In this document: positions 2,256 to 21,842 of the stretch, in pieces
Position numbering within the stretch: the first letter of the stretch is position 1
How the letters are laid out: every line of letters begins with the position of its first letter
Origin: Eledone cirrhosa
Lineage: Eukaryota
Assembly: GCA_964016885.1 (NCBI GenBank)
Contig: OZ024740.1
Coordinates: 68,634,001 to 68,698,000, forward strand
Length of the DNA stretch: 64,000 nucleotides
Direction: 5' to 3'
Notes under the pieces: model-generated
Told to the model about the DNA's origin: nothing
Database searches by the model: none
What the model saw: the letters and a program-made list of their open reading frames with translations, nothing else
Made by a program: the position numbers and the translations under genes

Positions 2256-2510
2256 CCAGGAAGTATAACGTGAAGTTATTGTAGGTTTACCCAGGTGGGC
2301 ACTCGATGTTTAGATTCACGCGAGTGGCGTGGTGTAGAGCTAAAGAGAGTGTAATATAATAATACAATGATGATTTGTTAAGACTTCGTTACGTTTATTG
2401 ATTGTTGACGCGCGTTTCGCTATTGATTAGCTCAAGGTTCGGTCTGTATCGATCTGCCCCGACTCTGGAATGAAAAGCTCCTCGGACCCTGCTGTTGTAA
2501 TGACAGAATG
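2256..2510 (-). mobile_element. Family B element with an enlarged-stem-II hammerhead (2404-2488)
   Basis: ggt CCGAGGA gct..(60-nt domain)..agc GAAA cgcgcg TC| aac. Homologous to 5741-6073 and to the ends of 19060-21842. Confidence 0.7.
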
Positions 2511-2607
2511 AATATATATATATATATATATATATATATATATATATATATATATATATATATATATATATATAGAGAGAGAGAGAGAGAGAGAGAGAGA
2601 GAGAGAG

Positions 2608-2794
2608 AAATAGTTTCTACAGGATAAGAACTGTTTCATTCGGGAGAAATCATCAGGAAGCACTGATGATTTCTCCCGAATGAATCAGTTCTGATCCTGT
2701 AGAAGCCATTTCTATATTAAATATTCATATTCTGATATGTATTGAGTACCTTACTTACTGTGGTTACCTCCGATTGAACCCGGGATAAACTTTT
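2608..2794. mobile_element. Fold-back HHR element, family A (other copies at 16751-16893 and 17845-17935)
   Basis: Minus-strand HHR 2613-2661 reads gcttc CTGATGA tttc-tccc-gaat GAAA cag-ttcttatc-ctg TA| gaaac. An inverted plus-strand copy lies at 2663-2706. The tail gagtaccttacttactgtggttacctc is shared with the 16751 copy. The element is bounded by microsatellites. Confidence 0.8.
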
Positions 2795-2877
2795 ATATAT
2801 ATATATATATATATATATATATATATATATATATATATATATTGGAAAATGTGTGAGATCCTTGGTACAGTTAGGTA

Positions 2878-3150
2878 TATTTAAAAAAAAGAAGAAGAAT
2901 GGCTTCACTTGCAGTGTTAAACATTTTGGGGATTTTATTTTATAATATTATAATATTATGAGTTGGTAAATCCAGTAAGTTCTTTGTTAACTTCGGTGGG
3001 AAGAAATTTAGAGATTCCTAAAATTCTTCCCACCGTAGTTAACAAAGAACTTACTGGATCCACCAACTCATAATAGTATATTATAAAATTAAATCCCCAA
3101 AATTGTTTAACATTACAAGTGAAGTCATTCTTTTCCTTTTTTCAAAATAT
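2878..3150. repeat. ~270-bp imperfect palindrome between TA tracts
   Basis: gaatggcttcacttg..cggtgggaagaa pairs with ttcttcccaccg..caagtgaagtcattc; centre ~3012. Confidence 0.8.
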
Positions 3151-17841: not shown

Positions 17842-17957
17842 TTTGTTTTAAACTAGAAACGCTTCTACAGGACTAGAACTATTTAATTCGTAAGAAATCA
17901 TCAGGTAGCCCCCGATTGAACCTGGAATGACTTATATATGTATATGTATATATATAT

Positions 17958-19002
17958 AGTATAACTGAACAAAAGCGAAAAACGAACATAGACATATCCA
18001 TATATTTGTTCAAATCGTAAAGGACCAGAATAGCTAAGGTGAAACGAATACTAACTACAGACAATAGGGTTTGCTAGACTCAATTTAAGAATAAATCAAG
18101 AAAAATAAATACAAACCAGAATTGTGGTAACCTCCGATCACCCGGACAGTTTTGATAGTACTGTTTCGCAATAATATTTGTGAAGAGGAATACCAAAATC
18201 CTAGCTCATCAGCGAGTGAAGAATTCTTAGTATCCTGATCACTTCTAAATATAATAAAAAAACTGGATAGTGTGTGAGCCGAATATAGCAAAGGCATGTT
18301 AAAAGCTCAAAATAGTCTCATTACAGTTAATTAGCTCTAGGGAAGAGGTTTTTTCCGAGCCGTATAGTATAACTGATCAAAAAAGAAAAACGAACACAGA
18401 CATATACATATATGTGTTCAAATCGTAATGGACCAGAATCAATAAGGTGATCACTAAGGGTGATCGGTAGTTAACACAATTCAGGTTTTCATACATTCGG
18501 CTCTTAATTCTTAGAGCTAATTCAAATCTCGAGTAAACCCGGCTGCTATTTTAAGTGGCGTGAGTCTGCGAGACACGCTATGTTCGGGAACCATGTGCGT
18601 TACACACACTATCCAGTTTTTATATCATATTTAGAAGTGATCAGGATACTAATAATTCTTCACCCGCTGATGAGCTAGGATTCTGGTATTCCTTTTCACA
18701 AATAATATTGCGAACAGTACTATCAAAACTGTCCGGGTGATTGGTAGTTACCACAATTCTGGTGTGTATTTATTTTTCTTGATTCATTCTTAAATTGAGT
18801 CTAGCAAACCCTATTGTCTGTAGTTAGTATTCGTTTCACCTTAGCGATTCTGGTCCATTACGATTTGAACACATATATGTATATGTCTGTGTGCGGTCTT
18901 CCTTTTTGTTCAGTTATACTATACGGCTCGGAAAAGCTTCTTCCCTAGAGCTAATTTACTGCAATGAGACTATTTTGAGTTTCTAACTCAATACATGCCT
19001 TT
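17958..19002. mobile_element. Tandem-plus-inverted ~408-bp unit with HHRs at 18138-18219 (-) and 18660-18740 (+)
   Basis: tcacccg CTGATGA gc..(38-nt domain)..gc GAAA cagt-actatcaaa-actg TC| cgggtga; the plus copy lacks one A. The unit restarts at 18366. The right arm 18603-19002 is an inverted, circularly permuted copy. Confidence 0.82.
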
Positions 19003-19059
19003 GATATATATATATATATATATATATATATATATATATAATATATATATATATATATA

Positions 19060-21842
19060 CCCACGGGGTGTAACTTGGAGTGACTGCAGGTTCACCCGGG
19101 AGAACACTCGATGTTTAGGTTCACTTCTGTGTAATATATTGAAACGATAACAAGGACGATTGATTACTCCTTCATTGCATTTATTGATAGGTGACGCGCG
19201 TTTCGCCACTGATCAGCTCAAGGTTCGATCTCTATCGAACCTACCCGACTCAATAATTGGCGGATCGACCGACCATTTTAAAATGCTATAAGAAAATGAA
19301 ATGCATGCTATGTGGTAAAGTCAGAGTTTCAAGAGTTTGAGAAAATGAATTGTTTTGATTGGTGTGAAGGTTGTCGCATACAACACCCCAACCAACAATC
19401 ACACAAACCTTGACCCAGCATCATAATGACCACCTCTGCACCGTCTCACCATCGCCCATCTCAGCGAATTTATTTTATTGTACTGCATGTAACCATATGA
19501 CTACCATACACACCCGCAACCTTATCCCCCATGTTCCCTCTGTCTACCCTAATCTACAACCCCACGCTTAATTCGACCCTGTAAATGTACTGTCGCGCAC
19601 ACAAAACCAACGCCACCACTAGATACATCCACATACTTCAACAATCATTAATATCATTAACATCACAAACACATATCATCCCTCACTCCCAGATCGACTG
19701 TATTATATCCTCCCCCCCCCCTGCCTTACCCTGTATCACACCGTAACCTCTGATCATGTAATCATTTTGTCGAACATATCACCCCAGCACCACCACCACC
19801 ACCATGACCACAGCACACATCGCCATATGTCCATAAACTATTTTCCCCCGCGTTCCCTATGTCAACTTTTAACCTGTAACCTATCGTACTATTCGATCCA
19901 ATACATGTTTGTCGCTCACAACTCCACCACCACCACCACAAGACACAACTCCATAATTCATCAACACCGCCAACACATACCTCCACTCCCAAACCAATGC
20001 AAGTGTGTAAGTATTTTTTACATATACGGGCGTATAAATATGCATGCGTGTATGCATATATATGTGTGTATATATATATATATATATATATATATATATA
20101 TATAAATATATATATATATATATATATATGTATATATATATATGTATATGTATATATATATATATATATAGTAGAATAATCGAGAATCGGAAAAACAGCC
20201 TACGAATTAACGATAAACAAATCCGATATGTGTGGCAGAGGGCTCAATAATTTGGATAAATCAGAGCTATAACCATCGTTAAATTACCAACACATAGAGG
20301 TCATGCCTAAAATCACCCATACAGCCGAAAAAGAACGACCAGGAAGATTCGGGTCACTCAAATAAAATATCAATAAATCAATAAATTAAATGAATGTAAA
20401 AAACTTACCCGGACCCGCTTGAAGGATATTAAATCTTGCTTCTTGGGTTTCTGCAATTCCTTAATCCAATCAATATCAGCCCACATAAAAATATATGAGA
20501 CTTTTAGAGAAGGGGGGGAGGCGGAAGAGCCTTTTCAACGGGAATTTCGTCCGAAAATGAAGAGAAGACCCTTAGCCAGAAAAGCACATGGTGCCTAGCA
20601 AGGGAGATAACCTCTACATTAACGAAAGATTTTAGGTAATGTGCAAATCATGTACGAATACAAAATATCACATATCGAATCAGAGTGCTCAACAGACGTG
20701 TTAAAATAAACAGGAGCTATTCATCAGTCAATAAGATCGACAAAAAAATAATCAATAAAATTTTCTGGTCAATAGCTAACATCTAGGGCTAAATATAGTA
20801 GAATAATCGAGAATCGGAAAAACAGCCTACGAATTAACGATATGTGTGGCAGAGGGCTCAATAATTTGGATAAATCAGAGCTATAACCATCGTTAAATTA
20901 CCAACACATAGAGGTCATGCCTAAAATCACCCATACAGCCGAAAAAGAACGACCAGGAAGATTCGGGTCACTCAAATAAAATATCAATAAATCAATAAAT
21001 TAAATGAATGTAAAAAACTTACCTGGACCCGCTAGAAGAATATATATATATATATATATATTTATATATATGTATATAAGTGAATCTATATGTGTGTGTA
21101 TATGTGTGCGTATATGTTTATGTGTGTGTGTATGTGTATATATATATATATATATATGTGCGTGTATACGTGTGTGTGTTGGGTGTGGGTGTGTTCGTGT
21201 GTGTATGTACATCAATATATATGCGCATGTATACATATATGTGTGTATACATATATACAACGTATATGTCAGACGAAGAGCGTCTAACTATGTATCTCCT
21301 CAGGGACTCGACACCACCAACACATCCACCACACCACCACAAACGCCACTACCATAAACAACAACACCACAACCACAACCCCACACGCCCAACCCGTCTA
21401 CCGACAACCCACTAACCTCACACCACAGCCCATCCCAGTAAGCGACCATACCACCATATTATCATCACATTCACCCTACATACACTACAGGCCAAGGCCA
21501 ACACCCCAGCACCACACCACAACCCATCACATCCACCGACCGTCACCAACATCTCACCATCACATCCACCCCAACATACAGTACAGGCCAGTACATCCCC
21601 TTGATCCTTCCCACCAATCAAAACATCTCATGTTGTCAAACTCTTGAAACTCTGACTTTACCACATAGCATATATTTCATTTTCTTATAGCATTTTAAAA
21701 GGGTCCGTCGAGCCTCCGTTATTGAGTCGCGTAGGATCGATACCGATCGAACCTTTTGCTGATCAGTGGCGAAACGCGCGTCACCTATCAATAAATGCAA
21801 TGAAAGAGTAATCAATCGTCCTTGTTATCCTTTCAATATATA
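19060..21842. mobile_element. Family B element with ~240-bp inverted ends (19134-19370 and 21606-21842) and a C/A-rich interior
   Basis: The inverted arms are visible directly. The plus-strand HHR-like motif at 21702-21785 reads ggt CCGTCGA gcc..ggc GAAA cgcgcg TC| acc. TA-flanked. Confidence 0.75.
20168..21036. repeat. Nested element with ~250-bp direct repeats (20171-20419 and 20798-21033) inside (TA)n
   Basis: Near-identical repeats offset by 627 bp, with a short deletion in the second copy. No ORF or clear HHR. Confidence 0.75.

What the first reader, a model, noticed from the sequence alone, without database searches (positions are those of the whole stretch)
2404..21785. Family B: hammerhead variant with a CCGANGA core and a ~60-nt insertion in stem II
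Seen in five copies of varying integrity (2404-2488 -, ~5785-5868 -, 5890-5975 +, ~19190-19275 -, 21702-21785 +). The consensus is ggt CCGACGA GCY..~60 nt..RGC GAAA C-GCGC-G TC| acc. The stem II base covaries (GCT/AGC vs GCC/GGC), and the domain contains an internal hairpin (ggttcgat-agag-atcgaacc in the 19.2-kb copy). Known: the canonical core is CUGANGA with a short stem II, so standard descriptors would probably miss this. Inference: an atypical HHR architecture whose inserted domain could be a protein-binding or regulatory module.
Basis: partly seen in the sequence, partly recalled or inferred. Interest (0 to 1): 0.7.

Follow-up and report, generated by a model that had tools for sequence, protein, structure and literature searches.

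The report
Long-stem hammerhead with drifting catalytic core
These five repeats are ends of a Penelope-type jumping gene that carries a hammerhead-ribozyme fold with a 60-base side helix kept across long-separated relatives, while two normally fixed catalytic letters changed repeatedly; the RNA likely cuts only weakly and as a pair, and the helix likely docks the element's own protein.

Summary
Observation largely confirmed, with corrections. The five copies are pseudo-LTR ends of a Hydra-clade Penelope-like retrotransposon (858-aa RT plus GIY-YIG frame; thousands of copies; (TA)n targets; head-to-head pairs). Each carries a type I hammerhead layout with a palindromic, dimer-type stem III and 59-60 nt between A9 and G12. 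CCGACGA is the true core of one subfamily (B1). The younger B2, including two window copies, has CCGUCGA (U4C plus A6U); B3 has canonical CUGACGA with the same insert. A sister lineage (about 52% protein identity, silent sites saturated) keeps a homologous 61-63-nt rod: its inner part stays 64-78% identical and the basal helix shows compensatory changes. There the core also drifts, reaching CCGUCGA a second time, while C3, G5, G8, A9, GAAA and U16.1 never change. Copies read through the cleavage site and pile up 5-40 nt upstream of the core, so templates were uncut or religated. Best reading: a weak, dimer- and probably protein-dependent hammerhead with a conserved docking helix. Cleavage is untested; no RNA data were found. 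The scan noted long-stem Hydra hammerheads before on other DNA. New variant of a known kind.

The parts
2404..2488 (-). B1 hammerhead module, core CCGAGGA, intact GAAA, palindromic stem III and GUC, one stem I mismatch; insert 2478-2419. The copy runs on through the ~100-nt tail to about 2250 and sits in (TA)n.
5782..5866 (-). B1 module, decayed (A9 to T, stem III and triplet changed); short arm of a head-to-head pair, ends in (TA)n near 5727
5890..5974 (+). B1 module, core CCGACGA but G12 is T (predicted dead); other arm of the pair, with a partly deleted tail ending near 6075 in (TA)n
19190..19274 (-). B2 module, core CGGTCGA, first stem II pair broken; inverted arm with tail, ending near 19055 in (TA)n
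19400..21700 (+). 3' UTR of the same B2 insertion (C/A-rich, with microsatellites), interrupted by an unrelated piece at about 20165-21040; no ORF
   Evidence: one search compared by eye with L061/L062; the last 588 nt are 89% identical to L013
21702..21785 (+). B2 module, core CCGTCGA (U4C plus A6U), 59-nt insert 21712-21770; short 3' end near 21840 in (TA)n
6870..7050 (+). Sister-lineage (D) copy not in the finding: canonical core CTGAGGA at 6964, insert partly deleted (46 nt), fused to an inverted fragment
7290..7457 (-). Second sister-lineage (D) copy, core CTGAGGA at 7363, G12 is T

Best explanation
The motif is the pseudo-LTR hammerhead of a Hydra-clade Penelope-like retrotransposon; its stem II is a conserved 60-base interrupted helix that likely docks the element's own protein, and it likely cuts only weakly, as a dimer and with protein help. 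Shown: element identity, copy structure, the helix and its covariation, conservation of the insert, the palindromic stem III, the drift at core positions 4, 6 and 7, and read-through of the cleavage site in inserted copies. Inferred working: most RNA starts 5-40 nt upstream of the core and is copied uncut from two fixed start sites about 60 and 165 nt past the cleavage site, giving the short head-to-head insertions. Occasionally two hammerheads of a tandem transcript pair through the stem III palindrome and cut, and the unit may be closed into a circle that yields the more-than-unit-length copies. Because uncut RNA is the main template, selection on cutting speed is weak. U4 and A6 therefore drift and revert, while the residues that do the chemistry are kept.
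For: Element: L062 holds pLTR-tail-ORF-3'UTR-pLTR; L188 has an open 858-aa frame with RILWR, DKT, YRDD, CxCx5C, YSYIG, CxxC and CRH, the Hydra marks in PMC8557442 section 11. 155 of 224 lineage-B copies end in (TA)4+; 39 of 44 head-to-head pair rows join one short and one tailed arm. Copy numbers: 3008, 1337 and 783 exact pattern matches, controls 0; sister lineage 2664, 1715 and 1078 (patterns overlap). C4 is the B1 master state: T at position 4 in 14 of 100 versus T at the control CpG position 7 in 17 of 100, p=0.70. Structure: 87% of cells paired versus 76% shuffled, 81 versus 33 double-changed cells (0 of 500 shuffles), slid registers 30-38%; RNAalifold finds the same basal register unaided; 10 real inserts all fold as one rod, z -0.7 to -3.6. 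Selection on the insert: fourfold sites between lineages B and C differ at 72-81% (50-53 sites), protein identity 51-55%, yet the inner insert is 25/39 to 31/40 identical; insert score beaten by 0 of 300 shuffles, flanks by 103, 36 and 267 of 300. C3, G5, G8, A9, A13, A14, A15.1 and U16.1 are invariant in all 24 aligned rows and G12 in 23. The A15.1-U16.1 stretch is self-complementary at 8 of 8 positions in 8 of 9 lineage representatives, with compensatory change. 5' ends pile up at -84 to -119 versus -120 to -200: B1 34 vs 1, B3 group 17 vs 4, B2 9 vs 7; only 6 of 38 ends lie within 8 nt of the cleavage site, 5.4 expected. Precedents: a PLE hammerhead that cuts only with its ORF protein and whose uncut RNA is the main template (PMC11167929); a natural U4C variant with low in vitro activity that works in vivo (PMC3088659).
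Against: No cleavage or binding data exist here. In a saturation mutagenesis, all single and double changes in the CUGA turn except the C3-G8 swap gave low activity (PMC9901934), so the U4C plus A6U core may be dead. The sister lineage also lacks the G10.1-C11.1 pair (10 of 24 rows paired), and its youngest branches have an extra core base, a change reported to give low activity. Stem I is only 3-4 bp in lineage B, and the hammerhead dimer fold lies 1.6-6.8 kcal/mol above the dimer minimum. Two covariation measures did not beat shuffles (pairs with double change 13 vs 11.1, 52 of 500; further pair types 24 vs 28.9); rows are related, hand-picked for intact modules, and the structure was named from these sequences. 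The apical GAUC helix never covaries. Absence of 5' ends at the cleavage site fits a dead ribozyme equally well. The 5'-end pile-up is weak in B2 (p=0.03), and part of the sample was chosen with patterns reaching to -84. Protein docking rests on conservation and analogy only. The tree is the quick one, and no ORF was found for B1.
Confidence: 0.58

Rival explanations
1. The ribozyme has lost catalysis in the CCGA and CCGU subfamilies; the three-way fold and long helix are kept only as a protein-binding or RNA-handling signal.
For: The youngest, abundant B2 carries two core changes (75 of the first 100 places read CCGT); CUGA-turn changes give low activity; no insertion end marks the cleavage site; hammerhead mutants did not impair insertion in vitro for another PLE.
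Against: G8, G12, U16.1 and a C or A at the cleavage base persist through every lineage; nine positions unchanged at the B2-B3 silent divergence has a neutral chance near 0.014. Stem-sequence order suggests returns to A6 and U4 in the sister lineage (order inferred). The dimer palindrome covaries.
Confidence: 0.27
2. The variant cores are fully active because the long stem II supplies a tertiary contact that compensates for U4C and A6U.
For: Tertiary contacts are proposed to offset core variants (PMC3088659). The invariant internal loop could form such a contact. A6U is seen as a master state only on a C4 background (CCGT 75, CCGA 3, CTGA 17, CTGT 0; same), though that is only two independent origins.
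Against: No partner of the apical loop is shared across lineages. Canonical-core subfamilies have the same insert. Efficient cutting should leave copies ending at the site or remove the templates that are seen copied.
Confidence: 0.09
3. The conserved insert works as DNA (internal promoter or endonuclease recognition site), and the RNA fold is secondary.
For: It lies just downstream of the inferred RNA start, where PLE promoters sit (PMC6765202 passage); the inner part is conserved in sequence with little covariation.
Against: The basal helix changes sequence (3 of 9 to 7 of 11 identical between lineages) yet keeps pairing, with many G-U pairs, which points to RNA.
Confidence: 0.06

Closest known systems
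Type I hammerheads of Hydra-clade Penelope-like elements (Craig et al. 2021, PMC8557442; read: passages, section 11, File S1/S2 tables in supplement part 2 of 59)
   Same: Same clade marks in the ORF, (TA)n targets, hammerhead in the pLTR, short palindromic stem III, followed by an A-rich stretch.
   Different: All 26 Hydra rows in File S2 have CUGANGA and at most about 26 nt between A9 and G12; here 60-63 nt, and master cores CCGACGA, CCGUCGA, CCGAAGA, CCGAAGGA, CUGAAAGA beside canonical ones. The 3' UTR is 1-1.7 kb. A spike-moss element in that table (PLE-X1_sMoe) has a 53-nt stem II with a canonical core, so length alone has precedent.
Minimal dimeric PLE hammerheads (Cervera and de la Pena 2014, PMC4209133; parts 1-2 of 4 read, one of two supplement files searched)
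   Same: Type I, palindromic stem III needing a dimer, low in vitro activity expected, inverted close pairs, many single truncated copies.
   Different: Their stem II is 6-8 bp and the core variant described is U3-A8; no U4C or A6U families in the parts seen.
Protein-assisted hammerhead of the anole Poseidon element PAc (Frangieh et al. 2024, PMC11167929; parts 1-2 of 4 read)
   Same: Two fixed 3' ends defining a tail downstream of the hammerhead; no ends at the cleavage site; uncut RNA as template.
   Different: Different clade, canonical core, no long insert described; the ORF there starts inside the hammerhead, here about 200 nt downstream.
Natural hammerhead core variants (Perreault et al. 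2011, PMC3088659; section 8 and passages read)
   Same: U4C, A6C and an insertion after A6 occur naturally with low activity.
   Different: Those are rare single cases; here variant cores are master states of families with hundreds to thousands of copies, and the double U4C plus A6U arose in two lineages.

Membership tests
Penelope-like element, Hydra clade | Single ORF with RT and C-terminal GIY-YIG endonuclease | tested here: met
   858-aa open frame with YRDD and YSYIG..R..H. Pfam support is weak: GIY-YIG E=0.009 on a fragment, nothing on the whole protein; no PDB relative.
Penelope-like element, Hydra clade | RWK-like motif, DKT in place of DKG, CxCx5C linker, CxxC and CxH around the conserved E and N | tested here: met
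   RILWR (RIRWR in L062), DKT, CNCKKRAEC, CRLC, CRH against section 11 of PMC8557442
Penelope-like element, Hydra clade | Grouping with published Hydra RTs in a tree | not tested
   The tree holds only copies from this genome; published Hydra proteins were seen only as text.
Penelope-like element, Hydra clade | pLTRs, tail at one end, inverted truncated copy, (TA)n insertion | tested here: met
Penelope-like element, Hydra clade | Short element (<3 kb) with canonical hammerhead | tested here: not met
   About 4.5 kb unit in L062; canonical core only in B3 and the basal sister branches
Type I hammerhead ribozyme | Three helices around the core, ends in stem I | tested here: met
   Stem I 3-7 bp with 3 of 4 pairs covarying, stem II, stem III only as a dimer palindrome
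Type I hammerhead ribozyme | CUGANGA core | tested here: not met
   Not met in B1 (U4C) and B2 (U4C, A6U); met in B3, D and C1
Type I hammerhead ribozyme | GAAA, A15.1-U16.1 pair and NUH cleavage triplet | tested here: met
   Invariant across subfamilies; GUC in lineage B, GUA in the sister lineage
Type I hammerhead ribozyme | Site-specific self-cleavage | not testable with these tools
   No RNA run listed; needs a bench assay
Naiad PLE with HHR_half_core | N-terminal endonuclease, DKA motif | tested here: not met
   Endonuclease is C-terminal and the motif is DKT
Metazoan non-LTR retrozyme | Non-coding tandem units each with a hammerhead | tested here: not met
   Dispersed truncated ends of a coding element, not tandem arrays

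The most novel reading that the evidence does not exclude
A retrotransposon hammerhead caught turning from a free-standing ribozyme into a ribonucleoprotein element: a conserved 60-nt stem II domain recruits the Penelope RT/endonuclease, which takes over the role of the uridine turn, so that U4 and A6 became free and the same CCGUCGA core arose twice in families that kept multiplying. The dated series of natural cores on one scaffold would be a ready-made test of what the hammerhead does in Penelope-like transposition.
Probability: 0.25. Interest if true: 0.75.

Novelty: new variant of a known kind. Interest (0 to 1): 0.52.

Why it matters
The role of hammerheads in Penelope-like elements is an open question in the papers read: they may process precursor RNA, or merely ride along. 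This lineage offers a natural series (CUGA, CCGA, CCGU, extra-base cores) on one conserved scaffold, each state amplified to hundreds or thousands of copies, plus an intact protein frame to test with. It also shows that descriptor searches miss thousands of hammerhead-like motifs in one animal genome, and it points to a conserved RNA helix as a candidate binding site for a telomerase-related reverse transcriptase. The setting itself (hammerhead in a PLE end) is known, and no activity is shown, which caps the interest.

Tried and rejected
Chance or one decayed copy: rejected. CCGA as a decay product of CUGA in single copies: rejected, T at position 4 is at CpG background in B1. Naiad with half core: rejected on domain order. 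Nematis clade, my first guess from memory: dropped after reading the Hydra marks. Expression and cleavage in reads: no RNA holder listed; the three runs laid are contigs of one sample and show no starts or ends, so they say nothing either way. ORF of B1: a pattern for tail plus ORF leader found nothing, and 20 plus 8 longer loci held no matching ORF; B1's place in the tree and the ancestral state of position 4 in lineage B stay open. One pattern was mis-spaced and uninformative. A shared pseudoknot partner for the apical loop: none across 9 representatives. K-turn reading of the internal loop: checked by eye against the recalled consensus, does not fit. The 28-nt-stem hammerhead upstream of L194 first looked like that element's own; it is a separate insertion. 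In one search, 27 of 184 copies were dropped as 5'-truncated and 6 were unassigned. Literature: searches for hammerhead with ccganga (0 papers), A6U, U4C (one paper), octopus and Hydra clade found no description of this motif. Lunse et al. 2017 on PLE hammerhead variants and Ambros and Flores 1998 on U4C are not held and were not seen; one supplement file of PMC4209133 could not be searched. These may bear on novelty.
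Full report
1. Observation. The five copies are present and homologous. Exact places are: the span between A9 and G12 is 60 nt in four copies and 59 in one. Rfam reports no hammerhead at any of them at E<=1.

2. The element. Genome searches gave thousands of copies: 3008 exact matches to the 17-nt 3' half, control 0. Following long copies upstream led to L062, which reads pLTR with hammerhead, 100-nt tail, ORF, 1.7-kb 3' UTR, second pLTR. L188 has an open 858-aa frame with RILWR, DKT, YRDD, CxCx5C, a C-terminal YSYIG endonuclease, CxxC and CRH. 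These match the marks of the Hydra clade in section 11 of PMC8557442. Profile support is thin: GIY-YIG at E=0.009 on a fragment, nothing on the whole protein. Of 224 lineage-B copies, 123 end within 75 nt of the cleavage site and 87 at 150 nt or more; 155 of 224 run into (TA)4+; 39 of 44 head-to-head pair rows join a short and a tailed arm. This is the insertion structure described for PLEs and the two start sites of reverse transcription in PMC11167929.

3. The core. Classified by positions outside the core (184 copies, 27 dropped as truncated, 6 unassigned): B1 CCGACGA in 46 of 70; B3 CTGACGA in 11 of 20; B2b CCGTCGA in 5 of 8; B2a CCGTCGA in 43 of 53. Part of this sample was chosen by similarity. 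Patterns leaving positions 4, 6 and 7 free gave 783 B1 places, with T at position 4 in 14 of the first 100 against T at the control CpG position 7 in 17 (p=0.70), and 1337 B2/B3 places, the first 100 reading CCGT 75, CTGA 17, CCGA 3, CTGT 0, other 5 (hand count). So C4 and U6 are master states, not decay. B2 is youngest (non-CpG divergence 2.5% against 4.2% for B3 and 5.8% for B1) and nests inside B3 and an intermediate CCGACGA group in the protein tree (quick method, 106 rows). No ORF was found for B1.

4. The sister lineage. Upstream of ORFs about 50% identical lies a homologous module with 61-63 nt in stem II. Its basal branches have canonical CTGAGGA; later ones have CCGAGGA, CCGTCGA, CCGACGA, CCGAAGA, then eight-base CCGAAGGA, CTGAAGGA and CTGAAAGA. 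A free-position pattern gave 1078 places, about 65 of the first 100 CCGTCGA and 96 with C4 (hand count). The same heptamer thus arose in both lineages; only two flanking bases are shared, so convergence is likelier than recombination (inference). The order of stem sequences suggests returns to A6 and to U4 (inference; C-to-T at a CpG is also a frequent mutation). More distant Hydra-like families in this genome have canonical or U3-A8 cores with 20-, 32- and 47-nt stem II and score only 15-23 bits against 51-89 for the sister lineage.

5. The insert. An alignment of 24 real copies (20 hand-picked representatives and 4 of the 5 window copies) supports one interrupted rod: a 9-pair basal helix, a 2-3-nt bulge, a 3-bp helix, a near-invariant internal loop, a 3-4-bp helix and GAUC/GAUC closing a 6-8-nt loop. 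87% of cells pair against 76% in shuffles; 81 cells changed on both sides against 33 (0 of 500); slid registers pair at 30-38%. Against: pairs with a double change (13 vs 11.1) and further pair types do not beat shuffles, the rows are related, I named the structure from these sequences, and the apical helix never covaries. RNAalifold recovers the basal register with weak energy, -2.8 kcal/mol, and not stems I or III. Ten real inserts fold as a rod, z -0.7 to -3.6. Between lineages, fourfold sites differ at 72-81% and proteins are 51-55% identical, yet the inner insert keeps 25/39 to 31/40 bases; no shuffle of 300 reaches its score, while the 60 nt upstream and the two 60-nt blocks downstream are reached by 103, 36 and 267 of 300. 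The last 60 nt before the ATG are also conserved (0 of 300). The insert is therefore under selection.

6. Is it a working ribozyme? For: C3, G5, G8, A9, A13, A14, A15.1 and U16.1 are invariant in 24 rows and G12 in 23; samples anchored on the 3' half left the 5' core free and show the same. Stem I covaries, and the A15.1-U16.1 stretch is a full palindrome in 8 of 9 representatives, with G-C to A-U changes, the dimer design of PMC4209133. Against: changes in the CUGA turn gave low activity in saturation mutagenesis (PMC9901934 passages); A6C and an insertion after A6 are weak; the sister lineage lacks the G10.1-C11.1 pair; the dimer hammerhead fold is 1.6-6.8 kcal/mol above the minimum. A natural U4C variant is reported as weak in vitro but sufficient in vivo (second-hand citation). 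No RNA data were available.

7. What the copy ends say. Among 155 lineage-B copies not chosen by upstream similarity, 5' ends pile up at -84 to -119 from the cleavage site and are rare at -120 to -200 (B1 34 vs 1; B3 group 17 vs 4; B2 9 vs 7, p=0.03). Only 6 of 38 ends between -78 and +40 lie within 8 nt of the site, 5.4 expected. Templates were therefore uncut or religated, also in the canonical-core subfamily, and a major RNA start likely lies 5-40 nt before C3. Some full-length copies extend further upstream than this start at their 5' pLTR (L062, L173, L207), which needs a tandem transcript, a circle or a template jump.

8. Mechanism. Best reading (0.58): a weak hammerhead that needs a dimer and probably the ORF protein, with the long helix as the protein's docking site; uncut RNA is the main template, so cutting speed is weakly selected and U4 and A6 drift. 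Protein assistance and uncut templates are shown for another PLE; here they are inferred. Rivals: dead core kept as a binding signal (0.27); fully active, compensated core (0.09); DNA-level element (0.06).

9. Novelty. A hammerhead in a PLE end is known. All 26 Hydra rows of File S2 of PMC8557442 have CUGANGA and at most about 26 nt in stem II; a spike-moss PLE there has 53 nt with a canonical core. Searches found no report of CCGA or CCGU master cores or of this insert, but Lunse et al. 2017, the closest paper on PLE hammerhead variants, could not be read. Earlier notes of this scan describe long-stem Hydra hammerheads in other genomes and one in this genome; none matched this sequence. Verdict: new variant of a known kind, interest 0.52.

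Noticed in passing
window 14600-14670 (-), 51748-51818 (-), 51872-51942 (+): Another hammerhead family with a 36-nt stem II; the copy at 14662 follows a Hydra-like ORF remnant (16552-14745, -) and reads CCGACGA, the other two CTGATGA. Whether C4 is a master state there is unknown.
   Followed up: no
window 29513-29574 (-); 3317-3378 (+) and 3242-3297 (-): Canonical-core hammerheads with 26-28-nt stem II and a TATATA stem III; the first follows a Hydra-like ORF remnant at 31157-30372 (-).
   Followed up: partly
window 46103-47619: Six canonical hammerheads at 310-nt period in two mirror-image tandem arrays (weak Rfam HH9 hits); retrozyme-like.
   Followed up: no
window about 57370-57445 (-): Canonical-core hammerhead with long stems II and III that could fold as a monomer; related pieces recur in several fetched loci.
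   Followed up: no
window 12214-13260 (+): 349-aa frame of another Penelope-like element with RT end, CxxCxxC linker and GIY-YIG (Pfam E=2e-5), not Hydra-like.
   Followed up: partly
L297, L314, L195 (sister lineage C3, C4, C6): The apical loop is complementary over 5-6 bases to the 3' half of stem III and the cleavage triplet, which could block cutting; not seen in lineage B, may be chance.
   Followed up: partly
L062:4884-4945, L207 and relatives, last 60 nt before the ATG: Conserved between lineages B and C (40 of 60 identical, 0 of 300 shuffles), just past the long 3' end; candidate protein-binding or start-site signal.
   Followed up: partly
L199, L200, L238, L245, L248 upstream of the ORF: Young Hydra-like family (open frames near 880 aa) whose hammerhead has a U3-A8 core and 20-nt stem II.
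   Followed up: no
L188:723-3296: Intact-looking 858-aa ORF of subfamily B2, usable for in vitro tests with the variant hammerhead.
   Followed up: partly
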